This document shows, one piece after another, positions 6,478 to 56,160 of a stretch of 64,000 nt of DNA; the first letter of the stretch is position 1, and the number at the start of each line of letters is the position of its first letter. Origin of the DNA: Tubiluchus corallicola (Eukaryota > Animalia > Priapulida); the NCBI GenBank assembly GCA_030141605.1, contig JAQGDQ010000745.1:1-64000 (forward strand), given 5' to 3'. A model generated the notes under the pieces. It was not told the origin of the DNA, searched no databases, and worked only from the letters and a program-made list of their open reading frames with translations. The translations under genes were made by a program, and so were the position numbers.

Positions 6478-6652
6478 TATGCCTCTGGACATTGGTATGC
6501 CTCTGGACATTGGTATGCCTCTGGACATTGGTGTGCCTCTGGACATTGGTATGCCTCTGGACATTGGTATGATTCTGGACATTGGTATGCCTCTGGACAT
6601 TGGTATGCCTCTGGACACCGGTATGCCTCTGGACACTGGTATTCCTCTGGAC
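6478..6652. repeat. 18-bp minisatellite (GCCTCTGGACATTGGTAT), about 10 copies
   Basis: Read directly. Confidence 0.9.
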
Positions 6653-6739
6653 AGCACCAGGAAGATCTTGTGCTGGTACTGACCAGATTAATGGTAAATT
6701 TCAGAAACAAAAACAGATATGCATTAAATGATCTACCTC

Positions 6740-7572: not shown

Positions 7573-7644
7573 CGGCCAAGTTTCTTCCGTGGGAGTTCCA
7601 AGCACTTGAAGAACGCAACGTAATTGGTCTATGTCGTTCTCACC
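7573..7644 (-). CDS. CDK20: CDK20 coding exon 8 (GENDIDQLRCVLQVLGTPTEETWP)
   Basis: TTTTAG acceptor and GTAGGT donor; 72 nt; GENDIxQL...LGTP...WP CDK motif. Confidence 0.92.
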
Positions 7645-11308: not shown

Positions 11309-11910
11309 AGGAATTGGCTGATGTAAATTAATTTGTTCATTAGCATTAGAACGAAGTGTTCTTACTATATTACAGCGTATTAAAAAACTATTAAAGTATG
11401 CAGGTGCCAACCAATGTAGTATTTTGTAGGTGATACAAAGAACTTTAAACTGATTTCGCAACAACGTAACTCTCTTAGAATGGGTGTAATATGATCGTAT
11501 TTTCTAGTTTTCGTAACTAGACGGGTAGCAGAGTTTTGAATTAGCTGGAGTTTGCTAATTTCATGTTTAGGGAGTCTAAAATTCTCTACCATTACAGGTT
11601 AAACAAATCAAGTCCCTATCAGCATTTAAAACAAAATTAAAATCACTAATATTAACCAGATATGAAATACCATCACACCAGTACGACAACATACACACTA
11701 ATTCAGAATTCGTATATCCACGGCCATATTAATTAAATCATAATTTTTTTCATTTTTTTGTGCATAGTTGAAAATATGTTTGATTTTATTCGTCGTTACT
11801 TTCCATTACTGCACAGTAGTTTAGATTGCAATATATATATATATATAAGTAAACTATTGCAATAATCAAGTTTGGACGTTACGAAGGTATGTATTTTACT
11901 CTTAGTTGTT
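10095..11910 (-). mobile_element. L2-clade LINE 3' fragment, interrupted by CT-rich expansions and a 246-bp insert
   Basis: Minus-strand peptides FVTSKLDYCNSLL / [32 protein letters not shown] / FYGEKVF / LKTHLFK are typical of the C-terminus of L2 ORF2. Confidence 0.7.
11585..11830. repeat. 246-bp interspersed repeat, copy 1
   Basis: Near-identical direct copy at 17098-17342; this copy splits the L2 fragment. Confidence 0.8.
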
Positions 11911-12055
11911 TGTATAAATAACATGCAGATAAATTTCATTAATTCTATTAAATTTAATAAAGCGCAATAAAATAAATATTTGATTTTACACTGACTTATT
12001 TTACGTTTCATTTCCTTTAACATTTTCATAGAAATTATTGCCACGATTTTAAAAC

Positions 12056-12235
12056 TGCAAAATCCCTGCAAATATTGACACGTATGCACGATGACGCAGT
12101 TGCATTGATGACGTACAATCGTTGCCATGGAAACTGTTCGTCCGTTAAAACCATTATGCAAAATCCCTGCGAATATTGACACGTATGCACGATGACGCAA
12201 TTGCATTGATGACGTACAATCGTTGCCATGGAAAC
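12056..12235 (+). promoter_or_regulatory. Duplicated (101-bp period) promoter module with two perfect RFX X-boxes and CRE-like sites
   Basis: GTTGCCATGGAAAC at 12121-12134 and 12222-12235, each preceded by TGACGCA and TGACGTA; ends about 110 bp upstream of the ATG at 12343. Confidence 0.65.
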
Positions 12236-12342
12236 TTTTCAACTTAGTTGTTGAAGTAACGCAAACGAGTTTATTCTCCGTCTGACGCTCGGCTGAGGAA
12301 GTTGGTGTTGGATGTCTCTCTTTTTACCAACTAAAGAGAAAC

Positions 12343-12349
12343 ATGGCTG
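12343..12349 (+). CDS. Nested protamine-like gene, coding exon 1 (ATG GCT G)
   Basis: AAACATGG Kozak context followed directly by a perfect G|GTAAGT donor; phase 1 joins the Arg-rich frame of exon 2. Confidence 0.72.
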
Positions 12350-12495
12350 GTAAGTAGGCACAGAGACATGTTATAGCGTCAAAAAGCAGATAAGAGGATA
12401 AACCTTCATTAAGGCAATTAATGCCTTCAGTAATAAGGAGAATTAGGAAACTGATGTTAAAACCAATTAAGGTTTTAATAAACTTTGCTTTCCAG

Positions 12496-12857
12496 GTGGA
12501 ATTTCTCGCCTTGAGAGACGACGTTCCCGTAGACGATCCCGTTCCCGTTCTCGCCGACGTTCTCGTTATGGAAGACGTTCTCGCCGACGTTCTCGTTATG
12601 GAAGACGTTCCCGTCGACGTTCTCGTTATGGAAGACGTTCCCGTCGACGTTCTCGTTATGGAAGACGTTCCCGTCGACGTTCTCGTTATGGAAGTCGCGA
12701 ATGGCCTGACCAGCCTTATCCTGATCCTTGGGGATCACCTCAAAGGCCATGGCCTCCAAGGCCACCACCTCCAAGGCCACGACCTCCAAGGCCTCAGCCT
12801 CCGCCTATACCTGATCCTTGGGGATACCAAAGGCAACGACCTCCAAGGCGGGGGTAG
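12496..12857 (+). CDS. Nested protamine-like / sperm nuclear basic protein-like gene, coding exon 2 (122 aa total)
   Basis: CTTTGCTTTCCAG acceptor; spliced frame reads MAGGISRLERRRSRRRSRSRSRRRSRYG(RRSRRRSRYG)4SREWPDQPYPDPWGSPQRPWPPRPPPPRPRPPRPQPPPIPDPWGYQRQRPPRRG*; 47/122 residues are Arg; TAG at 12855-12857; GC-rich island in an AT-rich intron. Confidence 0.72.
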
Positions 12858-12942
12858 GCCCATCTTTGCCGAAATACAAGCTCTGCAAAACTTCACGGTA
12901 TGGCAGCCTTACTGAGAATATTTGTTGAATTGGAACTGCAGG

Positions 12943-13200
12943 TTATTTATTTTGACTTACAATGATGTATGAAATTGTACCGTAATTTATTAGCATTTCC
13001 GGAGTTGCAGTCAAACACAACATTTTACTATTGTACATGAAGATACTGGTTACAAATGCACTGAGAAGACGCAAATTTGTTTTGAGGGAAAGTTTCTTGC
13101 TGGAGAGAATTGATTTATCTTTGATAAAACAATATATTGCTTGCTGTTTCATATTTTTCGTCTCATCAATTATGATGCCATTATTCAAAATTTTAAATCG
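12943..13200 (-). mobile_element. Degenerate LINE (RTE-like) reverse-transcriptase fragment
   Basis: Peptide KLSLKTNLRLLSAFVTSIFMYNS resembles the post-RT region of RTE-type LINEs; it lies inside the predicted 3'UTR intron of the nested gene. Confidence 0.4.
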
Positions 13201-13243
13201 CACTTAGAGCACCTTACTAACACATGATTTTTTTCTTTTTCAG

Positions 13244-13450
13244 AAATATTATTGAAAATTCTCCCTAGCAAAATTGAAATGACAAATTTACAAGCAGAAG
13301 GGAAAAAGTTTCTGCCACAAAAAGTTTTCGATCTTCATCATTACTGTAACGTCAGATGAGCTTAGCTTCAGTGGAAAATCAACCTTTCATACTTGTACGA
13401 AATTGTTAAATGTTTTTTAAAAAAAATAATAAAGTTTTGGCTTAAAGCAT
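13244..13450 (+). other. Probable non-coding 3' exon of the nested gene
   Basis: Donor ACG|GTATGG at 12898; perfect branch point TACTAAC at 13215-13221; long U-tract and CAG acceptor at 13241-13243; AATAAA at 13428-13433. Confidence 0.55.
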
Positions 13451-14074
13451 TTTTTGGTTTTATTGTATTGCGATTATGTGAAAAATCTGTGAAATTGTAT
13501 CATAATTATTACAAATGTTGTGATAATTTTTGCAACCAGTGTCGTCATAGTTATTTTATGCAGAAAATTAAAGCCATCTAATGAATGTAATACGGAGTCT
13601 GAACTGGACATCAGCATGATTTACACGCCCTATGTGGAGGCTGCAAGCCATTATCCGTGCACTCCATCAAATGCAGGGATTACTATGGCGTCAGTTGTGA
13701 GGTAATTATTCAAATATGAGGAACAACTGCTAACTTTTATAGACAAGTAAATGTATATTTTAGAGAGTAAATTTATGACACCACCACCACCGCCACCACC
13801 GCTGCTGCTGCTGCCTCTGCATTGCTACTACTACTACTACTACAAACACCACCACCAACACCAACACCACCACCACTACTACTACTACTACCACTACTGC
13901 TGCTGCTGCTGCTACTGCTACTGCTGCTACTACTATTACTACTACTACTACTACTATTACTACTACTACTACTATTACTAGTACTACTACTACTACTACT
14001 ACTACTACTACAAACACCACCACCACCACCACCACCACTACTACTACTACCACTACTACTAGTGCTACTACTGC

Positions 14075-19019: not shown

Positions 19020-19504
19020 CAGGGGTGTGCAAATTATCCATTAAACTTTCCCGCAATTCCTGCGGGCCACAGGCAGTTTGATCAAGGAGCCAAGTATAGA
19101 AAGGCCTAATAACGATTTTTTTGCATCCGACCTGCGTACATCATTACTACTACACTCGAGAAACTATTTTAGAAGTTATTAAAATTTATATTACAAACCA
19201 TATATTTCTACTTTCAGGACAGATAGTGGTAATTTCATTACAATGCATATTAGTAATGTGTATCACACAGTCTGTGTAGTACAGTGACATTAAGCTACAA
19301 CCGTCTTGTAAGGCTTAATGGCATCCGATCTAGTAGAAAAAACTACCCGCACTATCTTTGGGATCGTGGCACGGACTTCAGCTGGATACACTCAATTAAT
19401 CGCCAGGGCCGCACTTTCATTAGGTTGACAAATCTCTTCGCGGGCCGCACAAATTCTCTCGGCGGGCCGAAAGTGGCCCGCGGGCCGCAGTTTGCACACC
19501 CTTG
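19020..19504. mobile_element. Non-autonomous hAT element, family A
   Basis: Same TIRs and body; TSD TTATAGCA/TTATAGAT (6/8). Confidence 0.82.
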
Positions 19505-22006: not shown

Positions 22007-22058
22007 CGAAAAAAGGGGAGATCGATTCAGCATTTCACCAAATATGCAGCCAACAGCC
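22007..22058 (-). CDS. CDK20: CDK20 coding exon 7 (W-AVGCIFGEMLNRSPLFS)
   Basis: TTTCAG acceptor and GTGAGC donor; 52 nt; kinase subdomain IX. Confidence 0.92.
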
Positions 22059-25271: not shown

Positions 25272-25400
25272 GTAAGGTATGCAGGTGTCAAACCCTGCAT
25301 TATTTTGTAGGTGATACAGGAATTTTAAATTGAATTTGGAACCTTCTCGGTAACGAATGTAACTCTCTTAGAATAGGTGTAATAGGATCATATTTTATTA
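25272..25400 (-). mobile_element. Short L2-like fragment related to 11395-11500
   Basis: [13 protein letters not shown]...FKI peptide and DNA similarity to the 11.4-kb copy. Confidence 0.55.
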
Positions 25401-26334: not shown

Positions 26335-26523
26335 CCTGTGCATGATCCCATTTGCGTGCATGTACGACACTCCCTCTAGTAGCATAATCATGTAAGCTTT
26401 TATGTCGGCTTCGCTGAGGGGATGTTCCGCATCTCTGATAAGCGAAGTCAAATCAGTCTGCATGTACTCAAACACGAAGACGAAACCCATCCCGTGCGGG
26501 AACACTTCTATCAACCGCACAAT
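26335..26523 (-). CDS. CDK20: CDK20 coding exon 4 (IVRLIEVFPHGMGFVFVFEYM...GIMHR)
   Basis: TTGTAG acceptor and GTTAGT donor; 189 nt; VFPHG, FEYM hinge and HR of the HRD motif. Confidence 0.94.
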
Positions 26524-27760
26524 CTACAAGCAGAACAGATGCTGTGATCAGTAACAACCCATCCCGTGCGGGAACACTTCTATCAACCGCACAATCTGCA
26601 AGCAGAACAAATGCTGTCATCAGTAACAACCCATCCCATGCGGGAACACTTCTATCAACCTCACAATCTACAAGCAGAACAAATGCTGTCATCAGTAACA
26701 CCCCATCCCGTGCGGGAACACTTCTATCAACAGCACAATCTGCAAGCAGAACAAATGCTGCCATCAGTAACAACACATCCCATGCGCGAACACTTCTATC
26801 AACCTCACAATCTACAAGCAGAACAAATGCTGTCATCAGTAACACCCCATCCCGTGCGGGAACACTTCTATCAACCTCACAATCTACAAGCAGAACAAAT
26901 GCTGTCATCAGTAACAACCCATCCCGTGCGGGAACACTTCTATCAACCTCACAATCTGCAAGCAGAACAAATGCTGTCATCAGTAACAACCCATCCCATG
27001 CGGGAACACCTCTATCAACCGCACAATCTGCAAGCAGAACAAATGCTGTCATGAGTAACAACCCATCCCATGTGGGAACACTTCTATCAACCGCACAATC
27101 TGCAAGCAGAACAAATGCTCTCATCAGTAACAACACATCCCGTGCGGGAACACTTCTATCAACCTCACAATCTGCAAGCAGAACAAATGCTCTCATCAGT
27201 AACAACACATCCCGTGCGGGAACACTTCTATCAACCGCACAATCTGCAAGCAGAACAAATGCTGTCATCAGTAACAACCCATCCCATGTGGGAACACTTC
27301 TATCAACCGCACAATCTGCAAGCAGAACAAATGCTGTCATCAGTAACAACCCATCCCGTGCGGGAACACTTCTATCAACCGCACAATCTGCAAGCAGAAC
27401 AAATGCTCTCATCAGTAACAACACATCCCGTGTGGGAACACTTCTATCAACCGCACAATCTACAAGCAGAACAAATGCTGTCATCAGTAACAACCCATCC
27501 CATGCGGGAACACTTCTGTCAACCGCACAATCTACAAGCAGAACAAATGCTGTCATCAGTAACAACCCAGCCCATGCGGGAGACACTTCCGTCAACCGAA
27601 CAATCTACAAGCAGAACAGAATGCTGTGAACAAGGTAACAACCCATCCCGATAGCGGGAGACACTTCTACCAACCGCACAATCTACAAGCAGAACAAATA
27701 CTGTCATCAAGGTAACAAATCCATCCCGTAGCGGGAGACACTTCTATCAACCGCATTCAA
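26484..27760. repeat. 72-bp minisatellite, about 17 copies, built from the CDK20 intron 3 / exon 4 junction
   Basis: AACCCATCCC recurs at 26484, 26556 and onward; the first unit overlaps exon 4. Confidence 0.95.
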
Positions 27761-31388: not shown

Positions 31389-31792
31389 CAGAGGCATATT
31401 AACCAATAGGCTAGCTAGGTCATAGCCTAGGGCGCCAAAGTTTGAAGGCGTCACATGTTAAAAAAATTCTTATTCTCGACGGAAAAAGTGTATAGTTTCA
31501 TATTTAGGTATAGGGCACATTTTATAACACACCACAGGCAGTTATTGAGCTCAGCTTTTATATAAGTGCCACATAATGAACAGGTGCAAGGTATTAGACA
31601 ATAAGCAGTTGTGGAGCCTACTTGAATATAAGTCCTATGCAAATGCATGTAATTAATAATGTATTTAGGTTAGTAACACACTACAAGTAATTGTTTAATT
31701 TGATGTTACATAAGCAACCATAAATTCACAATAGAGATGGGCGGGGCAGAACTACCAGCTTAGGGCATTGGTAAAGTCTTGATATGCCCCTG
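31389..31792. mobile_element. Probable hAT-type MITE, family C
   Basis: Termini CAGAGGCATATTAA / TTGATATGCCCCTG; flanks CAGTCTAT/CAGTCTAC. Confidence 0.55.
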
Positions 31793-31896: not shown

Positions 31897-31971
31897 CTCA
31901 ATGCGTCGAGCTTTAAACACAACACCGTGTGCACCTTCGCCAATGCGACCCGAGATGCTGTATTGCTCCAT
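31897..31971 (-). CDS. CDK20: CDK20/CCRK coding exon 1 (MEQYSISGRIGEGAHGVVFKARRIE)
   Basis: ATG at 31971; glycine-rich loop GEGAHG characteristic of CDK20; GTATGA donor; 75 nt, phase 0. Confidence 0.93.
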
Positions 31972-39168: not shown

Positions 39169-41472
39169 TCATTGTTTAGCAATCACTAAATCAGTATCAC
39201 TGCTGCCACCTTTCAGTGGAAACATCAAAACTTTCGACTGCATAAAAGAAAGATCCGGTAACCGGTCCAGTATTTTTATGGCTTCGGTGCTTAAGTTGCT
39301 TCTGTCGCCTTTTTTCTCCCGCGGAACGGTTGACCGACTGCTCGCTAGTAACCTCGCTATCGGATGAGTAGGCGAACACGGCAACTGTTTAGTGGGAGAC
39401 TCCGACGAAGACGGGCTTGCTAGCTCCAATATGTCAGCATCCAGGTCACGTCCACTTGATCCACTGGAGCTCATCTTGTCCGCGAAGAAATCCAGATCCA
39501 ACAATGCAGATCCGCCGTCCGACAACGGATTTGTCAAACCGCTCGACACCCAATCAAATTCGGCTGCGGGGAGGTTTTCGGGAGACAGGTGGTGCTCCGC
39601 CTGAGCTGATTCGCCATTGGTTGTTGCAGGTTTGGCATCTGTATCCAGAACTTTGATTGGTTCTAACAAGCCGAGATGAGAGGCAAACACGGGCATCATT
39701 GGCTGCTTTTTTGATATAATATTCCTAGTATCGACGCCAAGAGATTTCATTAACAAGCGATTGTTTGTAGACTCGCTCCACTGATATGACAATGCTACTG
39801 TACCTTCAATGTCCTTCAAGCTGTCCCACACTGACGCACCTGCACTAAAATTGCTACTATCATCCTCAGAAGAACTGTCCTCAGGAGGTTTAGCTTCTTT
39901 TAACGTTGCCGGCAAAAGTATTAATGAGTTTCTCGGGTTAAGGTTCCCCGGTTCACTCGGGAAAGCACCGAGCACCAACCTCTGCAAATTCGACTCGGGA
40001 TCGCCTTGATCGGTTGTTCTTTCGTGATCCAACGGAGGAGGTAAATCGTGCCTCTGAGAATCGTTGTATTCGCTTGGCGTAATATTGCCAGCACTATCAA
40101 AATCAGCAAAACCGCAGTCGAATCTAGCCTCAACCGATGCAGCCTCCCAACCTACAGCAGCTGTTTCCCAACCTACTGTAGTCGTGCTCGCAGAAGAACC
40201 GCCGTCAACGGGAACAGCCGACGAGAAATCAGCAAAATCGTCATATTCGTCTAAAGGGTCTACAGATCCTGGAATGTCAGAAGACATTTCTTCGTCAGTT
40301 GCCATAACCGTGTTTGGTAGTGGCAGATCCAAGTCAGAAATGTCACTTACTTGAGCATCGGTAGGAGCAGCCGATGAGAAGTCTGCAAAGTCATCACCGT
40401 CTTTGTCGACGACTTGGTGAGTGGGAATGTCAACTTCCACCCCTTCTATCATAGAAGAAGCCAACGCCATAGATGAGGAATGAGAAAAATCGTCAGTTTC
40501 AATGTGAAAATCTGACGGCTTTACTAAGTCTAGATCCTCATTATAATGCTCTGGAACGGAGCTCAGTTTTGGTAGATCATACCCTGATGGGTCAGCTTCT
40601 GGATCAAATGATGGAGCAGAACCGAAACGGTCAAAATCGTTATCAGCATCGCCTTCAAGATGCACCTCGGTATTGGCGTCGTTGATAAGCTCATCAGTTT
40701 GTGTCTTGGAATTGTCCGAGTCAGAATACGAGACGACTGAAACATTTGGAGGAGGATGCTCATCACAATCACTAGCATCTATGTCAGTTTCTAGGTATGA
40801 GTGGATAGACTTCCACGTTTTATCTTCTATTGGACCATCAAGTAATTCGTCAGCGGGGTCAGCCCGAAATCTTTCTCTGGAACTAAGAACAGGTGAATTG
40901 TTATCTATTTCATTTTTATAACTCTGATCGGCCAGATCTGCTACCTTCGCATCTTGCCTTTGCTCTGTCAAATGGCGTTCAGACGAGTCGGAAACAATAT
41001 AAAGCCCAACTGGCTTACTCATGTGCTGAGCAGAACTCGCATCAGCCTCAATGGCAGAGCTCGTTTGATCAACTACTTTATCAGTAACTTTATCAAAAGT
41101 TTCAGAAATGTCATCATACTCGAGCCTGCCTGTATCTGTAGGCTGCTCAAACTCAACGGGAGTATCAGTGAACAGGGTTGGGTCAGAGAAATGACCAACA
41201 GACGTGTCAGCAACCTTTGACGGCGAGTACCCAGCAAATACCGTGTGATCTAATGGCGGCGGCGAAAAACCTTTCCAACTTTCCTCATCGGACTTATCAA
41301 AAGATTCCGAAAGGTCTTGGGTACAATGAGGAGTAGATTCCTCGCTTCTCGTATGACCTGCCCTTTGTTCTTCTACAAAAGAATGGTCGTACTCTTTTCC
41401 AGACTTCGAACCTTGTGCGTCTTCACATGTCTTGAACTCGGCAAAGTCTCCGAAGTCGTCGTCGTCATCCAT
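39169..41472 (-). CDS. AFTPH: Aftiphilin (AP-1/clathrin accessory protein), intronless CDS, 767 aa
   Basis: N-terminal DDDFGDF and repeated FADF gamma-ear-type motifs; PPPLD motifs; clathrin-binding region [20 protein letters not shown]...LGVDTRNI; LLDLD clathrin box; C-terminal LPDLSFMxxKVLMFP. In-frame TAA just upstream of the ATG. Confidence 0.9.
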
Positions 41473-41673
41473 GGTGATGTGTGGTCCCAGGTGTTAATTA
41501 ATCACAGCGTGCACTATCTGTATGGATTGTCGGTTCTCTGCATCTTGGCCATGACAACTAAAAGTGTAATAGCGTAGATATAATTACTAGAGTCAGTGCC
41601 AGCACCTGTGTTTGAGGGATAACAACAATTATTTTAACAATTTGTTATTTCGATTGTTTGGTTAGGGTTAAGG

Positions 41674-42158
41674 CAGGGGTGTGCAAATTATCTGACTAGC
41701 CGGGCCACATTAAACTTACCCGCAATTCCTGCGGGCTACGGGCAGTTTGATCAAGGAGCCAAGTGCAGAAAGGCCTAATGTCGATTTTTTTTTTGCATCC
41801 GACCTGCGTACATCATTACTACTACACTCAAGAAACTATTTTAGAAGTTACTAAAATTTATATTACGAATCATATATTTCTACTTTCAGGACAGATAGTG
41901 GTAATTTCATTACAATGCATATTAGTAATGTGTATCACACAGTCTGTGTAGTACAGTGACATTAAGCTACAACTGTCTTGTAAGGGTTAATGGCATCCGA
42001 TCTAGTAGAAAAAACTACCCACACTATCTTTGGGATCGTGGCACGGACTTCAGCTGGATACACTCAATTAATCGCCCGGGCCGCACTTTCATTAGGTTGA
42101 CAAATCTCTTCGCGGGCCGCACAAATTCTCTCGGCGGGCCGCAATTTGCACACCCCTG
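41674..42158. mobile_element. Non-autonomous hAT element, family A
   Basis: Same TIRs and body; TSD GGTTAAGG/GGTTAGGG (7/8). Confidence 0.85.
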
Positions 42159-43830: not shown

Positions 43831-44330
43831 CAGGGGTGTGCAAATTATCTGACTAGCCGGGCCACATTAAACTTTCCCACAATTCCTGCGGGCCACAGGC
43901 AGTTTGATCAAGGAGCCAAGTACAGAAAGCCCTAGTAACGATTTTTTTGCATCCAACCTGCGTACATCATTATTACTGCACTCAAGAAACTATTTCAGAA
44001 GTTGTTAAAATTTATATTACAAACCATATATTTCTACTATCAGGACAGATAGTGGTAATTTCATTACAATGCATATTAGTAATGTGTATCACACAGTCTG
44101 TGTAGTACAGTGTTATTAAGCTACAACCATCTTGTAAGGGTTAATGGCATCCGATCTAGTAGAAAAAACTACCCGCAATATCTTTGGGATCGTGGCACGG
44201 ACTTCAATTGGATACACTAAATTAATCGCCTGGGCCGCACTTTCACTAGGTTGACAAATCTCTTCGCGGGCCGCACAAATTCTCTCGACGGGCCGCAAGT
44301 GGCCCGTGGGCCGCAATTTGCACATCCCTG
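43831..44330. mobile_element. Non-autonomous hAT element, family A (500 bp)
   Basis: TIRs CAGGGGTGTGCAAATT / AATTTGCACATCCCTG; perfect 8-bp TSD ATTTAGAT. Confidence 0.88.
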
Positions 44331-50145: not shown

Positions 50146-53100
50146 CTACTCAAGCCTTACTAGAAGGCCATACAGAGCAGTTGCTCCCCTTTCTTTTGTA
50201 AACCACTCGATTTCATTGTTGCTGAAATGCGGATCGATCGCGTGGTTGACTCCAATCGATTGAGGTCCAACTCGGTAACAGCCGGGCCGTACGCACACTT
50301 GGAATGCGACTCTAACCTGAGTCTGTTTCTTCGAGTCGATGTCGGTCCACTCCTGTCGAGTCGCAAACAAATCGTTATCGATATAACGAATGGATGGAGA
50401 CAAAAATATCTGACTGATGTCCTCTTTGCTTTTGTATTTTCCGCGAGAAGCGTATGGAGTGAGCGCCTTTCCGCCTAAAGCCACGTCGCCCGGAAGAAGT
50501 AATTCTCCGTGGTCGAGTATTTTTCTGATGGCGGCGATGCGCGTACCATGAAACGCAACATGCCAATTTTCACTTGCATTAATGTTTTCAAATCGCGGGG
50601 CAATCCGCAGGCCAAACCGGCACCAGCCAAAAGGAACCGTGTAGTCTTTAGGCGGGTCTCCTCCTTTGATGCACCGACTGTCTTCTTGGATGCTATAACA
50701 TTTTTCGCAGAAACACACATTCTTTTCCGGACAGAAATACACAGCGGGTAAGCCAAGAAGATCAACAAAGACCGAGCAGGCTTTCATATAATCACAGTTT
50801 TCCACTGGCCTTGCTTCAATGGTTCGTTGAGGTGTAACTTTCTCCGTCTTGTTACTCTCGATGTCTGCCTTTTCCTTGTCCTCTCCTTGCTGAGAAGTCG
50901 AAGAACTGCTATCGTCAGACGCCGCGTCATTTGTCACAATGCTCACCTGATTGCAACGACCATAGAGATCGACTAGGACAAAACACAACCCCGGCAAATC
51001 CGTCGCAGCCACGCCTCGGTCCACACCATTCACGTACATGTGCAGACTGTTATGGTAATCGATTAGCAACCCTACCCTACCGCTTGTTAAAGTATCTAAA
51101 TCTGGCCCATAGCACTCTTTTATCTTTGCCTTATTATGAAAAACAGATTGGCCCTGTATGATCCACACGGCTCCTTCCATCGAGACTGCATTACTGGGAA
51201 AGACAATTTTGTCCAAATGTGTACCGACAATGCCAACGCGCAGTCCGGAAGACCATCTGGAGTTTGACTGGTTAATCTCAATTTCAAACAACTGCTGTCT
51301 CACAAGCGGCTGATTGCAGACAGCTATAGCTTGATCATATCCGGCCTTTCTCGTAGCCGTGCGATTGCGATTGGACAGATTGATGTTCCGTCCGTGTCTA
51401 TTGTGAAAGACGTGCGAAATCGGCGCTTTCGTGTCGACGTCTCCATCTTCGTCGAACGCCTCTCGGTTCAGAAAGTGCACAAGTGGCGCACGAGGACTCA
51501 CAAGAGGAACTTCAGCTATGGAGTTGCTTACGATGCTGATGCCGTCAACCGTGCCGTAAACATCAACAAGGGCGTGCACTTTCTTCGGTATATGCGTAGC
51601 TGCAACTCCCATGTCTTCACTGTTTACGAACAAGTGCAGCGTGCCGTCCGAGCATACCATAACTCCAACTTTCGTGCCGACTTCAACGCGATGTAAAGAA
51701 GGGACAAAGTTTTCCTTGAGAACCACATTGTTTCGCAAAACGCTCGAGCCGCTTATTAGCCAGGTAACTTTTGATTTGTTATCTGCAAACTCTTTAGCAG
51801 ATGCGGGCAGACTAGAATTAGGCATGTTGTCGTGAATGGTGAACGTCGTCACACCAATTTCTAGTGAACCTGAGTACAGTTGAGTCATTGAGTCCACTTG
51901 TATTTCGAATAGCTCATCCAATTTCATAGGATGAGAGCTGAAAACCAAACCACAATTATAGTTTTTCTGCCTCACAGCAGAACATGCCCCATTTTTCAGG
52001 AGTATGTTTTTCCCGGTACACATGCACAGACGATGAGTAATTTCAGCTGTGAGACGCGCTGGTGACACGTCAGTTTGCATGAGCTCCAGCACGTGATTCT
52101 GTGGTTGCACCGGTTTACTGTTCTGATTTAGAATCGTAACTTGAGCACACTGCCCGTACAAATCTATCACAGCATACACACCTTTAATATCACCTTTACC
52201 GGGAGGAACATCTGTACAGGCAACCCCCATATCAGCGCCGTTCACGTAAAAGTGCAGAGTACCGTCTGCCAAACGGCTCATGCCGATGCGGGATCCGACC
52301 ATCAAAGTGTCCAGATCGCAGGCGTAACCATTGCGAATGGTTGTTCCATCTTGCATGATGGCCGACCCGCTCAGCATCCAAGTTTCATAATCTATGTCGG
52401 TCATCGTGTTAGGAAACTCTAGCTGATCCGGTCTGATCGTCGTTACTCCGGCCTCTATAGACCCCGACCAACGCTCCACCATTTTTTCGATAACCACCTC
52501 GAACATTTCGCCATCTTTTAGCGGTCGCTTGGACGTGACGATGGCATCGTTGAATTCGCCGTGAGCATTTGGCCGGGAGGCCGTTAATCCATTGTTAGTG
52601 ATTGTTGCATTACGACCATGAAGATGGTGGAACTGCAGTGGCTCTTCCTCTTCCTCTGCGACCGCTTCGTCATTAGCATCAGCAGTTTGATCTACGTCTT
52701 CTATTGTTGACACGGGTATCAGGGATGTTGCCGAATGATCAACAATATGAGCTTTTGCTGCCTGGCCATATAAGTCTATCACTCCGTAGACATTCTCCGG
52801 CACGTCTGTGGCAGCGCATCCCTGATCGACGGAATTTACGTAAAAATGCACGTTTCCGTTGTTCTTTCTCAACACGCCGACGGTGTCGCCACATTTTAGA
52901 CGATCGAGATTTTGGCCGTATTCTTCCAGCACGGTCGTACCGTTGTGCATGACGCCGTTGCCGGTCATCATCCACGTTCCGCTGCGAATGTTCGTCATGG
53001 TGGCGGGGAAGTCCAGATCTAGCGGCAAATGAGTCGTTACACCAATTTCGATGGAACCGGCCCATTTATCTATGATCTGATCGACGGCAATTTCAAACAT

Positions 53101-54498
53101 TTCGTTGACACGCAGTGGCCTGTTAGTTAACACGACCGCGTTGTTAAAGTCCACGGTGGCATTGGGACGTATGGCAGCTCTACCGCCCTCTACGACCCGA
53201 GCATGAGAACCGCAGTGAGGATGAAAAAGCAAGGCGTCCGCTTCCGAATCTAGAGCGGCGAAAGACGGCAGGTTGGACGTGCAGTCGCTCATCTGCGTGT
53301 ACATTTGCGTCAGCTGCTGAAACAGCGTGTGCGCCCTGTTCTCAAAGATGGCTCCCAGGCTCTGCTGTAGGCTGGTGCGGCGGTCACTTTCCTGCGCAGT
53401 TAGCGTGACCTTCACGGCCATGCCGTAAAGGTCGACAACCGCAAAGACCACGCTCGGAACTCGGCTGGCAGCTATGCCCTGGTCGACACCGTTGATGTAA
53501 TAGTGAAGATTACCGTTTGTCTTGCGTATCATTCCGATCCTGTCTCCCTCCATCAGCTCGTCGAGATTATAGTCTCCGTATTCCCTCCGCGTTCCTTTGC
53601 CGTTCGTCAGGATTCCGCAGCCGCTCATCATAATCGTTCCCGATCTCATGTTCGTCATGGTGGCGGGGAACTCCATCGTGTTCGGATTGTGGGTGGTTAT
53701 CCCGACTTCTATGGACCCGGACCACTTATCTACTAGCCTGTCCAATGTTATTTCGAACATTTCGTTGTCGTGGAGAGGTCTGTTAGACATGATGACACCG
53801 TTGTTAAATTCGTCGAGAGGTCGCCGTCGTTCGGCCGTTCTATTCCCGCTGGATAGCCTAATTAACGAGCCGCACCTTTCATGAAATTGCAACCTGTCTT
53901 CTTCGTCGCTGTCATCATTACAATTATTTTCCTTTGTATGCCCATTATTCATGGCAACTAAACTTTCGTTAATTGCCTCGTTTGCTATGATTCTTGTTTC
54001 TACGCTCTCTGTAATTGTCACTTGCACGCACTTTCCATACATGTCGACGATGACAAATACTTTTTCTGGAATGCCTCTCGTGGCTTCTCCGTAATCGGTT
54101 CCGTTCACGAAGAAATGCAGCGCTCCTCTGGTCGTGCGCATGACACCGACTTTGTCGCCCTCGCAAAGCCGGTCCAAATCGAAGCCGTATTCGTCGACGA
54201 TCGACCGCCCGTTCATGAGTATGCAGTTGCCGGAAAGCACCCAGGTGCCTTCGCGAAAGTCCGTGGCGCTAGCCGGAAACTGAAGGTTGTTTGGATCGCA
54301 CGTCGTGACGCCAATCTCGATGGAGCCGCTCCACGAATTGATCTTTTTGTCCACTCTCACCTCGAACAGCTGATTGTCCTGCAGCACGTCTCTGCTCATG
54401 ACCACCCCGTTGTTGAACTCTTGCGTGGGGTGGTTGCGATATGCGGTCTTATTGTTGTTGCTCAGAGAGACGAGTATACCGCATTTGGTGTGGAACAT
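50146..54498 (-). CDS. NEURL4: Neuralized-like protein 4, intronless CDS, about 1450 aa
   Basis: Six NHR repeats (FHxxxG...FNNGVVxSxRPL...WSGSIEIGVT...YGVIDLYG) and the C-terminal Cys-rich plus ART-like region (FHGT...LSPSIRY...EIEWF). The first true ATG is at 54498 (GCCATG); the ORF-track start is a GTG. Strong acceptor at 54578 suggests a 5'UTR intron. Confidence 0.93.
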   Translation of the reverse strand: MFHTKCGILVSLSNNNKTAYRNHPTQEFNNGVVMSRDVLQDNQLFEVRVDKKINSWSGSIEIGVTTCDPNNLQFPASATDFREGTWVLSGNCILMNGRSIVDEYGFDLDRLCEGDKVGVMRTTRGALHFFVNGTDYGEATRGIPEKVFVIVDMYGKCVQVTITESVETRIIANEAINESLVAMNNGHTKENNCNDDSDEEDRLQFHERCGSLIRLSSGNRTAERRRPLDEFNNGVIMSNRPLHDNEMFEITLDRLVDKWSGSIEVGITTHNPNTMEFPATMTNMRSGTIMMSGCGILTNGKGTRREYGDYNLDELMEGDRIGMIRKTNGNLHYYINGVDQGIAASRVPSVVFAVVDLYGMAVKVTLTAQESDRRTSLQQSLGAIFENRAHTLFQQLTQMYTQMSDCTSNLPSFAALDSEADALLFHPHCGSHARVVEGGRAAIRPNATVDFNNAVVLTNRPLRVNEMFEIAVDQIIDKWAGSIEIGVTTHLPLDLDFPATMTNIRSGTWMMTGNGVMHNGTTVLEEYGQNLDRLKCGDTVGVLRKNNGNVHFYVNSVDQGCAATDVPENVYGVIDLYGQAAKAHIVDHSATSLIPVSTIEDVDQTADANDEAVAEEEEEPLQFHHLHGRNATITNNGLTASRPNAHGEFNDAIVTSKRPLKDGEMFEVVIEKMVERWSGSIEAGVTTIRPDQLEFPNTMTDIDYETWMLSGSAIMQDGTTIRNGYACDLDTLMVGSRIGMSRLADGTLHFYVNGADMGVACTDVPPGKGDIKGVYAVIDLYGQCAQVTILNQNSKPVQPQNHVLELMQTDVSPARLTAEITHRLCMCTGKNILLKNGACSAVRQKNYNCGLVFSSHPMKLDELFEIQVDSMTQLYSGSLEIGVTTFTIHDNMPNSSLPASAKEFADNKSKVTWLISGSSVLRNNVVLKENFVPSLHRVEVGTKVGVMVCSDGTLHLFVNSEDMGVAATHIPKKVHALVDVYGTVDGISIVSNSIAEVPLVSPRAPLVHFLNREAFDEDGDVDTKAPISHVFHNRHGRNINLSNRNRTATRKAGYDQAIAVCNQPLVRQQLFEIEINQSNSRWSSGLRVGIVGTHLDKIVFPSNAVSMEGAVWIIQGQSVFHNKAKIKECYGPDLDTLTSGRVGLLIDYHNSLHMYVNGVDRGVAATDLPGLCFVLVDLYGRCNQVSIVTNDAASDDSSSSTSQQGEDKEKADIESNKTEKVTPQRTIEARPVENCDYMKACSVFVDLLGLPAVYFCPEKNVCFCEKCYSIQEDSRCIKGGDPPKDYTVPFGWCRFGLRIAPRFENINASENWHVAFHGTRIAAIRKILDHGELLLPGDVALGGKALTPYASRGKYKSKEDISQIFLSPSIRYIDNDLFATRQEWTDIDSKKQTQVRVAFQVCVRPGCYRVGPQSIGVNHAIDPHFSNNEIEWFTKERGATALYGLLVRLE

Positions 54499-56160
54499 GG
54501 CGTCTAAATTGAGAGACACTCTAAAGCGGATGATTTCTTTATCTACTCATAGTAATGCACTTTGCTAATCACAGACCCTAAAAGTAAAAAAGGACAATAA
54601 ATTACTTCTATTACTTCTATGTCAAAACAACCTACTCTTTAAAATATTGAAAGGAAACATGCTATGGAAATAATCAATAATATTTGCGTCATCAGCAGAC
54701 TTTGTCAGACGGTGCCATTTCCAAGAATTCTTATTATCCGCTATGATGTACGGTAGTTGATTATTTCCTTGCCTCGCCCACACTGCAAAGTCACTTACAA
54801 TGCTTGGTCTGAGCCAAGAAAAAGTGAAACAAAATTTTATACCGATTTTTAATCGAAAATTAGGGGTGTGTGTTATACACGTGCGCGCGTTATACTCGAA
54901 TAAATACGGTAATTGTGTTAAAATGTATATGTTTTATCAGACTTGAAAATGGGGTAGTGCATGAAAAATCATCCCATCTTCCTTTAACTCCAGAAAATTG
55001 AACCGAGCACATATAAAAAAGGCGGAACATGTAAATTGAAACTCCCTGGAATAACAATTAGCCACAGCTATTTTTTACCGTAAGTCATTTGAAACAGGTT
55101 TATAGAACATTGAGTAAAGTTTGAAAAAATAATCAGTGCATTTGTAGCACACATGTCACTAACTAAGCAAAAGTTTAAAGGACAACAAAAGAGGTACCTG
55201 AAGTAGGTTTCAAAAAAAATCACCTTAAAAAATTATATTACGTTACAGCAGTTTCATGCGTATATCGTACTCACGTTAAAAGGAATTTTTGTTACTTTTC
55301 ATTTTAAATCTCCGGCAATACTGTTCCAACCGCGCCATTACATGACGTGAATCAGGGGAAGAAAAGGAAATTTTAAACTTTCCCAAATGTCCCAAAAAAC
55401 TTGCAAATCTATATTAGCTAACATTTCGCTTTACTGCTGGAAAGACGTATGTAACTAGAAATAATAATTTATAATGTTCTTGCCAATTGATGAAATGTCG
55501 CTGACTCACCCTCCAGGGTGCGCTCCTCACTAACCAAAAAATTATTGGCAAGATACAGTAATTTAAATTTTACTTAATTAGCAACATGTATGCTACGAAT
55601 GCTTTGATTATTTTTTCAAACTTTACTCAATGTTATCAAAACTTGTTTCAAACGACCTGCCATTAAAATGGCTGCACATAATGCTCATCGCGGGAGTTTA
55701 AATTTACACGTTTTATACAGCGTTACTGTCGACGCAAGCCCTGCATAGGAAAGGTAGTACGTAATAGTGAAATGTTTAGTGAGGTGCTTTATATCTTGAA
55801 CATAAGCGAGCAAAAAAATAGGAATTCAAATTATATCTATGCATGTATACACTAACCAAGATTAAACTGATGTAAATGTACTCCAAGGGAAAACTCCGAG
55901 TTCTGAGCTCATGGAGTTGCATTGTTCACAGATTTTCAGGAGGGCATTTGCGGCCCTACAGGTCCTGAAAATAAACAGATAATAAACACTTTGAAAGTGC
56001 AATTATAATCACATTTAGCAGCCCATTCTCGGAAAATCTAACAAAATGAGTACGCAAAAACTTGAAAAAAATAGCTGTTTTTACAATTATGAATTTATTC
56101 CACAGCAACACAAACACACATGCAAGTTGATATTACATTGCAAAAAAAGTAAATAAACTA

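What the first reader, a model, noticed from the sequence alone, without database searches (positions are those of the whole stretch)
12343..13450. Hidden protamine-like gene nested antisense inside a CDK20 intron
Seen in the sequence: ATG GCT G|GTAAGT (12343-12349) splices in phase to TTTCCAG|GT at 12496. This gives a 122-aa protein whose residues 10-68 are 36/59 Arg, built from five 30-bp RRSRRRSRYG-type units. A third, non-coding exon is marked by a donor at 12898, a perfect TACTAAC branch point, a U-tract/CAG acceptor and AATAAA. The ORF track misses the gene because this frame has no start codon in exon 2. Established knowledge: Arg clusters with SR dipeptides and Tyr are hallmarks of protamines and sperm nuclear basic proteins (e.g. 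in cephalopods and other invertebrates), and CDK20/CCRK regulates cilia and flagella. Inference: this is a lineage-specific sperm chromatin protein gene inside a ciliary kinase gene, possibly co-expressed in spermatids.
Basis: partly seen in the sequence, partly recalled or inferred. Interest (0 to 1): 0.88.

Follow-up and report, generated by a model that had tools for sequence, protein, structure and literature searches.

The report
Protamine-like gene family with proline tail
Lying backwards inside an intron of a kinase gene of an unplaced invertebrate is an intact reading frame, predicted to be spliced from three exons, for a very arginine-rich small protein with an unusual proline-rich tail; it is likely one of several copies and likely packs DNA in sperm, but its expression is untested.

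Summary
Every coordinate of the observation checks out. The reading frame is 122 aa, with 36/59 Arg in residues 10-68, and it lies antisense in a 14.4-kb intron of a CDK-family gene (the CDK20 label rests on recalled motifs).

New here:
(1) Contigs of one public run (X1, apparently DNA) carry at least three forms of the gene, with introns. Start codon, splice signals and frame are kept while the leader, introns and tail differ. It is likely a multi-copy family under selection, not a lone orphan or a transposon.
(2) A duplicated RFX X-box-like palindrome and CRE-like half-sites lie 110-250 bases upstream of the ATG.

No homologue was found. Splicing and testis expression are untested.

Best reading: a protamine-type sperm DNA-packing protein or its precursor (about 0.7). 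It is not filed as a canonical protamine: it is oversized and carries a 54-residue Pro/Trp tail. Co-expression with the kinase is unsupported, and the nesting is probably incidental.

The parts
12056..12240 (.). Upstream 101-bp tandem duplication (1.8 copies, 96% alike); each unit holds an X-box-like palindrome and two TGACG half-sites
   Evidence: one X1 contig skips about one unit (joint 12036-12151)
12121..12134 (.). X-box-like site, distal copy
   Evidence: one mismatch to the published GTNRCC-N-RGYAAC
12222..12235 (.). X-box-like site, proximal copy, about 110 bases before the ATG
   Evidence: no variant listed here in X1, while 7 substitution and 5 insertion rows lie at 12247-12272
12283..12288 (+). 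CRE-like half-site close to the presumed transcription start
   Evidence: 5 TGACG in 12050-12342 against 0.46 expected (4 of the 5 come from the duplication); CRE label recalled
12343..12349 (+). Coding end of exon 1 (Met-Ala-first base of codon 3); the 5' end of the exon is unknown
   Evidence: no variant listed at 12343-12355 in X1; the three upstream ATGs give only 8-18 aa
12350..12495 (+). Intron 1, phase 1, 146 bases (predicted)
   Evidence: one X1 form has a diverged intron that ends in an aligned pyrimidine tract and CAG in the same phase (table 7, phase)
12496..12897 (+). Exon 2: coding to TAG 12855-12857, then 40 untranslated bases
12546..12694 (+). Five 30-bp units coding an Arg/Ser/Tyr/Gly decapeptide; the presumed DNA-binding domain
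   Evidence: both differences between unit types are silent in this frame and replacements in the rival frames
12693..12854 (+). 54-residue tail: 23 Pro, 10 Arg, 4 Trp, with two PDPWG motifs (12720, 12810) that arose by an internal 90-bp duplication
   Evidence: the tail differs between X1 forms
12898..13243 (+). Intron 2 (predicted) in the 3' untranslated region, with branch point TACTAAC at 13215-13221
   Evidence: an X1 contig over 13160-13311 differs around, but not in, the branch point and AG
13244..13450 (+). Exon 3, non-coding (predicted), AATAAA at 13428-13433; the 3' end is approximate
   Evidence: an X1 contig over 13338-13463 has 11 other letters and 4 gaps, none listed inside the AATAAA
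7645..22006 (-). Host intron of a CDK-family (CDK20-like) kinase gene that starts at 31971 on the minus strand

Best explanation
This is an intact reading frame, predicted to be a spliced three-exon gene and likely one member of a multi-copy family, whose very basic Arg/Ser-rich product likely works like a protamine (or its precursor) and would pack DNA in maturing sperm. Shown: the intact frame, splice signals and poly(A) signal; the antisense position in a kinase intron; variant forms that keep the frame. Inferred steps: (1) RFX and CREB/CREM-type factors bind the upstream X-box-like and CRE-like sites and switch the gene on in germ cells that build a flagellum. (2) The stop lies only 40 bases before the last junction, so the mRNA would escape junction-dependent decay (rule recalled). 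(3) The protein has no signal peptide or folded domain; it would enter the nucleus, be phosphorylated on its many SR/RS serines during loading, displace histones and neutralise DNA through about 37 arginines in residues 1-68. (4) The Pro/Trp tail, which varies between copies, is most likely a stiff, unstructured spacer or a piece trimmed off during maturation, leaving an 8.8-kDa protamine-sized core. The position inside the kinase intron is most likely the landing place of one DNA-level duplicate.
For: Composition: 47 Arg, 0 Lys, 5 acidic residues, computed pI about 12, 15.2 kDa; residues 9-68 are 98% Arg/Ser/Tyr/Gly; 15 SR and 13 RS dipeptides; highest 11-residue hydropathy is -0.6. Arg clusters, pI of 12 or more, precursor cleavage and multi-gene microheterogeneity are described for invertebrate protamines (PMC12216123 passages); serine phosphorylation at deposition (PMC11607694 passages). 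Selection on the frame: of the 25 substitution rows in X1 over 12190-12990, 14 lie upstream or in the leader, 3 in intron 1, 5 in the 362-base coding part, 2 in the 3' untranslated part and 1 in intron 2; all 8 insertion rows lie outside the coding part. Rows 12536 and 12653 are silent in this frame and replacements in both other plus frames; the three rows 12645-12647 are one Arg-to-Ser codon in one contig. A variant tail replaces 63 bases by 24 and rejoins before the same stop; loose ends at 12503, 12611, 12640, 12768 and 12849 all read as stop-free Arg/Ser/Pro/Tyr/Lys-rich peptide in this frame (translated by hand with the phases). An out-of-frame upstream ATG at 12312 is destroyed in four X1 contigs. 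More than two forms exist: three letters at 12314, at least three tail types and two exon-2 starts. RFX2 is a major regulator of spermiogenesis acting through X-boxes near transcription starts (PMC4498915 passages).
Against: Nothing here shows the tissue or the protein. The unprocessed chain (122 aa, 15.2 kDa) exceeds the sizes given for protamines (50-110 aa; 3-10 kDa), and no Arg run is longer than three. High arginine content alone does not define a protamine (PMC12216123). A Pro/Trp tail has no counterpart in the papers read. The X-box has one mismatch to the published consensus; at that tolerance the window holds 9 matches (4 of them these two sites read on both strands) against 3.8 expected, and the exact-match pattern was recalled and chosen after seeing the site. 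The RFX2 passages do not name protamine genes as targets. Two variants after the stop (12879, 12897) are silent in the rival acidic frame. All variant evidence comes from one run of unknown make-up, laid at 80-88% likeness; it could pool individuals or related species, and variants near contig ends are not listed. One X1 joint (13423 to 13525) would remove the AATAAA.
Confidence: 0.7

Rival explanations
1. A real gene family for a basic, disordered nucleic-acid-binding protein with another job, for example a transient spermatid transition protein, an RS-domain RNA or speckle protein, or a structural protein of ciliated cells under RFX control.
For: The evidence for a real gene is the same. X-boxes mark ciliary genes in general, not only sperm genes. 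SR/RS dipeptides are abundant and the Pro-rich tail resembles protein-binding linear motifs (recalled).
Against: No RNA-recognition or other folded domain (0 Pfam families). Tiny size, Arg without Lys and several rapidly diverging copies fit sperm basic proteins best.
Confidence: 0.17
2. A secreted peptide precursor: either an RYamide-type neuropeptide precursor (Tyr-Gly followed by dibasic sites) or a Pro/Arg-rich antimicrobial or adhesive protein.
For: Two of the 9 weak hits of the 1.84-billion-protein search carry SRYGR repeats and a third carries RYGK repeats, each behind an apparently hydrophobic N-terminus (8 of the 9 were read). The tail is Pro/Arg-rich.
Against: No hydrophobic stretch anywhere. 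Exon 1 codes only 2 1/3 codons and shows no listed variant in X1. Cleavage at the basic runs would release only tripeptides. The hits match the repeat alone, not the tail.
Confidence: 0.04
3. The other open frame of exon 2 (acidic Asp/Val/Leu/Met repeats, open from 12394 to 12915) is the real product.
For: It is open across all of exon 2; two variants after the TAG are silent in it.
Against: No ATG in 12200-12349 splices into it as a long frame. All four informative single-base changes in the repeat region are replacements in it and silent in the Arg/Ser frame.
Confidence: 0.02
4. A non-coding repeat, a non-autonomous mobile element or a dead duplicate whose arginine frame is a by-product of a CG-rich minisatellite.
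For: The window is full of minisatellites (73 rows). The block has several forms in X1 and a LINE-like remnant lies beside it. No protein homologue was found.
Against: Complete, correctly phased splice, branch and poly(A) signals; no indel listed in the coding part; frame-keeping tail variants; no terminal inverted repeat and no shared 9-mer or longer between the two edge zones. This particular copy has no lesion.
Confidence: 0.07

Closest known systems
P-type sperm nuclear basic proteins (protamines) of invertebrates, e.g. squid, honeybee, spider and Monodonta protamines as reviewed in PMC12216123 (passages), PMC11607694 (passages), PMC13148410 (introduction)
   Same: Small, Arg-dominated, pI about 12, Ser-rich; several variant forms; possibly a precursor to be trimmed
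   Different: 122 aa and 15.2 kDa; the core is five near-perfect decapeptide repeats with Arg runs of at most three; a 54-residue C-terminal Pro/Trp tail (the precursor pieces described in the passages read are mostly N-terminal); no Cys; no detectable sequence similarity; presence in sperm not shown
Protamine-like (PL) proteins derived from histone H1/H5 (Spisula, Mytilus, tunicate, Nasonia Nv-PL1/2; PMC13148410 introduction)
   Same: Basic, in the 6-40 kDa range given in PMC11607694, with a disordered basic region
   Different: No winged-helix domain and no lysine
Vertebrate protamine P1 genes (bird and marsupial type; recalled, no call)
   Same: RS-rich N-terminus, Arg-Tyr-Gly motifs, small intron-containing gene, CRE-type promoter element
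   Different: No homology shown; extra 3' untranslated intron, X-box-like site, Pro/Trp tail; the resemblance is probably convergent
RYamide-type neuropeptide precursors (label recalled; P0121, P0122, P0126 look like these)
   Same: Repeated Arg-Tyr-Gly-basic motif
   Different: No signal peptide; spacers are pure Arg/Ser

Membership tests
Protamine (P-type SNBP) | Arginine-rich with Arg clusters and pI of 12 or more | tested here: met
   47/122 Arg, 54% in residues 1-68, pI about 12; runs of at most three; criteria
Protamine (P-type SNBP) | Size 50-110 aa, 3-10 kDa | tested here: not met
   122 aa, 15.2 kDa unprocessed; residues 1-68 alone would be 8.8 kDa, but trimming is untested; criteria
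Protamine (P-type SNBP) | Expressed in spermatids and replacing histones in sperm chromatin | not testable with these tools
   needs gonad RNA and sperm protein
Protamine (P-type SNBP) | Match to a curated protamine profile | tested here: not met
   0 Pfam families at E up to 0.1; weak test, since protamines of different phyla are not alignable
Protamine-like (PL, H1-derived) | Winged-helix globular domain | tested here: not met
   no Pfam hit; no hydrophobic core; criterion
Secreted peptide precursor (neuropeptide or Pro/Arg antimicrobial) | N-terminal signal peptide | tested here: not met
   highest 11-residue hydropathy -0.6
Transposable element | Terminal inverted repeats, target-site duplication or transposase/RT coding | tested here: not met
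   (self-comparison of 11850-13700; edge zones 11850-12250 and 13400-13700 only); the true edges of the duplicated unit are not known
RFX target promoter | X-box GTNRCC-N(0-3)-RGYAAC near the transcription start | tested here: inconclusive
   perfect 5' half-site, one mismatch in the 3' half; binding untested
CDK20/CCRK (host gene) | Orthology to CDK20 among CDKs | tested here: inconclusive
   CDK family shown; subfamily from recalled motifs only

The most novel reading that the evidence does not exclude
An independently evolved, RFX-wired protamine family in an animal lineage with no described sperm chromatin proteins: a repeat-built Arg/Ser core fused to a copy-variable Pro/Trp (PDPWG) tail that stays on the mature protein and recruits a partner or spaces DNA fibres, with the sperm-packing gene placed under the ciliogenesis transcription programme.
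Probability: 0.2. Interest if true: 0.7.

Novelty: new variant of a known kind. Interest (0 to 1): 0.46.

Why it matters
Sperm DNA-packing proteins are known from few invertebrate groups and are routinely missed by annotation, because they are short, repetitive and, as here, start in a micro-exon. A candidate family from a lineage that falls outside the sampled molluscs, annelids, arthropods and deuterostomes would add a data point on whether protamines arose repeatedly or from histone H1: this one shows no H1 domain and looks built from tandem repeats. The Pro/Trp tail and the X-box-like promoter give two concrete, testable departures from textbook protamines. The nesting inside a kinase intron is probably not significant.

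Tried and rejected
Expression: no RNA holder listed; this is no evidence either way. X1 contigs run straight across the exon/intron borders, so it was read as DNA, and the lack of splice joints in it says nothing. X2 held next to none of the words and matched only flanking repeats. No whole genome is held, so other copies could not be located or counted.

Depth: summed contig depth in X1 was higher over 12210-13424 (7.6-163) than over 13506-13667 (1.1-3.7), but the tool states this is no copy number, so it was not used as a count. X1 has no cover at 12703-12756 (first PDPWG) and 12048-12128; a hole proves nothing.

Homologues: none at E up to 1 among 7990 candidates, none for the tail at E up to 10 among 590 candidates (both limited to 65-209 aa). 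One search gave 9 weak hits, all centred on the repeat; 8 of the 9 were read and none is a relative. No usable Atlas hit. 0 Pfam and 0 NCBIfam families. No locus in metagenome contigs or viral contigs. Rfam: one chance-level match, 10 bits against a cut-off of 70.

Other ideas dropped: that the block splits a LINE copy was rejected, because the X2 joint 11847-13703 rests on a TA run. Shared X-box control with the kinase: no strict X-box near its start; a one-mismatch site at 31705 in its first intron is at chance level.

Lineage: a FastTree of the neighbouring NEURL4 protein with 37 of the 120 listed hits (chosen by me, mostly invertebrates) leaves the window outside the well-supported lophotrochozoan and arthropod clades and outside the deuterostome rows, in no strongly supported set.

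Literature: searches listed no paper on a Pro-tailed invertebrate protamine or on a protamine inside CDK20. The library lacks most subscription journals, where much sperm-protein biochemistry was published, and no supplements were read. The two motif-string searches found nothing.

Full report
Observation. A 7-base coding end of exon 1 (12343-12349) is followed by GTAAGT, and a pyrimidine tract with CAG ends at 12495. Joined in phase 1 the frame gives 122 residues ending at TAG 12855-12857, with 36 of 59 Arg in residues 10-68. Tandem Repeats Finder reports five 30-bp units at 12546-12694. A second donor lies at 12898, 40 bases after the stop, followed by TACTAAC at 13215, an acceptor before 13244 and AATAAA at 13428. 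Only 1 of 9 TACTAAC sites in the window has a pyrimidine tract and YAG behind it, and the short ATG-donor pattern occurs at 2 places in 64 kb. The junctions remain predictions from DNA.

Host gene. Minus-strand kinase exons run from 31971 to below 2900. The exon ending at 22007 joins in phase to the one starting at 7644, so the locus is antisense in a 14.4-kb intron. Pfam and the solved-structure search show a CDK-family kinase. That it is CDK20 rests on recalled motifs. CCRK's role in ciliogenesis was seen only as a search listing (PMC5574612).

Which frame. Exon 2 has a second open plus frame coding acidic Asp/Val repeats. No upstream ATG reaches it: the three upstream ATGs give 8-18 residues. 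The two differences between repeat types are silent in the Arg/Ser frame and replacements in the others.

Related DNA. One public run, X1, holds 0.39 of the words. Its contigs cross exon/intron borders, so it was read as DNA. Over 12190-12990 the 25 substitution rows fall as 14 upstream or in the leader, 3 in intron 1, 5 in the coding part, 2 in the 3' untranslated part and 1 in intron 2. All 8 insertion rows are outside the coding part. Two coding rows are silent, and three form one Arg-to-Ser codon in one distant contig. No row touches the ATG, the first donor or the proximal X-box-like site. One form has a diverged intron 1 that still ends in an aligned tract and CAG in the same phase. One replaces 63 tail bases by 24 and rejoins before the same stop. 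Other loose ends read, by hand translation with the phases, as stop-free Arg/Pro/Lys/Tyr-rich peptide. An out-of-frame ATG at 12312 is destroyed in four contigs. Contigs over the 3' part differ around, but not in, the branch point, acceptor and AATAAA. Three letters at 12314, at least three tail types and two exon-2 starts exceed what one diploid locus can give, so a multi-copy family with introns is likely; only one copy is in this window. Against: it is one run of unknown make-up laid at 80-88% likeness, so pooled individuals or species are possible; variants near contig ends are not listed; two post-stop variants are silent in the acidic frame; and one joint (13423 to 13525) would remove the AATAAA.

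Upstream region. A 101-bp duplication (12056-12240) carries two copies of a 14-bp palindrome at 12121 and 12222, and four of five nearby TGACG half-sites. The palindrome has a perfect RFX half-site and one mismatch to the published X-box (10.1101/2021.02.03.429678 and PMC10530576, passages). With a recalled pattern chosen after seeing the site, these are the only matches in the window (0.44 expected). With the published pattern at one mismatch there are 9 matches, 4 of them these sites, against 3.8 expected. RFX2 regulates mouse spermiogenesis through X-boxes near transcription starts, but the passages read do not name protamine genes as targets (PMC4498915). This is suggestive, not shown.

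Homologues and lineage. None were found. The neighbouring NEURL4 is at most about 62% identical over the whole searched region to listed proteins. In a quick tree with 37 of 120 hits it falls outside the sampled lophotrochozoans, arthropods and deuterostomes without strong support. The lack of homologues may therefore reflect poor sampling of the lineage as well as fast evolution.

Mechanism. The protein has 47 Arg, no Lys or Cys, pI about 12, 15 SR and 13 RS dipeptides and no hydrophobic stretch. The likeliest role is that of a protamine or its precursor: germ-cell transcription through RFX/CRE-type sites, phosphorylation of serines during loading, histone displacement and charge neutralisation by the repeat core, with the copy-variable Pro/Trp tail as a spacer or trimmed piece. 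All of these functional steps are inferred. Arg clusters, high pI, precursor cleavage and multi-gene microheterogeneity are described for invertebrate protamines (PMC12216123 passages; PMC11607694 passages; PMC13148410 abstract and introduction). The first of these also warns that arginine content alone does not define a protamine.

Membership. It works like a protamine by inference but is not filed as one: the unprocessed chain is oversized, the runs are short and presence in sperm is untested. It is not an H1-derived PL protein (no winged helix), not a secreted precursor (no signal peptide) and shows no transposon ends. Earlier unchecked notes of this scan report protamine-like genes inside introns of unrelated hosts in two other genomes. 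Together with the several copies, this suggests the nesting is incidental.

Verdict. A real gene is very likely (about 0.9), and a sperm DNA-packing role likely (about 0.7). It is a new variant of a known kind, interest 0.46. Searches listed nothing describing such a Pro-tailed protein, within a library that lacks most subscription journals.

Noticed in passing
window 26484-27755 (minus strand): A 72-bp tandem array (17.5 copies) duplicates the splice acceptor and first 13 codons of a kinase exon. Of 17 acceptors, 15 lead to a stop within 30 codons and only the last gives the intact kinase. How splicing skips 16 decoy acceptors is unexplained; an assembly artefact was not excluded.
   Followed up: partly
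window 50149-54546 (minus strand): NEURL4-like gene as one uninterrupted 1466-codon open frame with six Neuralized repeats and a SPRY domain, although the neighbouring kinase gene has many long introns.
   Followed up: partly
window 39172-41493 (minus strand): 774-codon open frame with the aftiphilin clathrin-binding box.
   Followed up: no
window 6478-6653: 18-bp minisatellite (9.8 copies) in the next kinase intron, open on the minus strand as Cys/Pro/Glu/Tyr hexapeptide repeats within a 107-codon frame; probably non-coding.
   Followed up: no
window 11380-11900 and about 25300-25400: Remnants resembling the C-terminal end of a LINE reverse transcriptase (label recalled); one X1 contig runs from the first remnant into the upstream region of the gene, so the duplicated unit may reach at least 11852.
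   Followed up: partly
window 31705-31718: One-mismatch X-box-like site in the first intron of the kinase gene; at chance level.
   Followed up: partly
window 19428-19469, 42100-42143, 44254-44297: Three copies of a short GC-rich doublet that probably marks a dispersed small mobile element.
   Followed up: no
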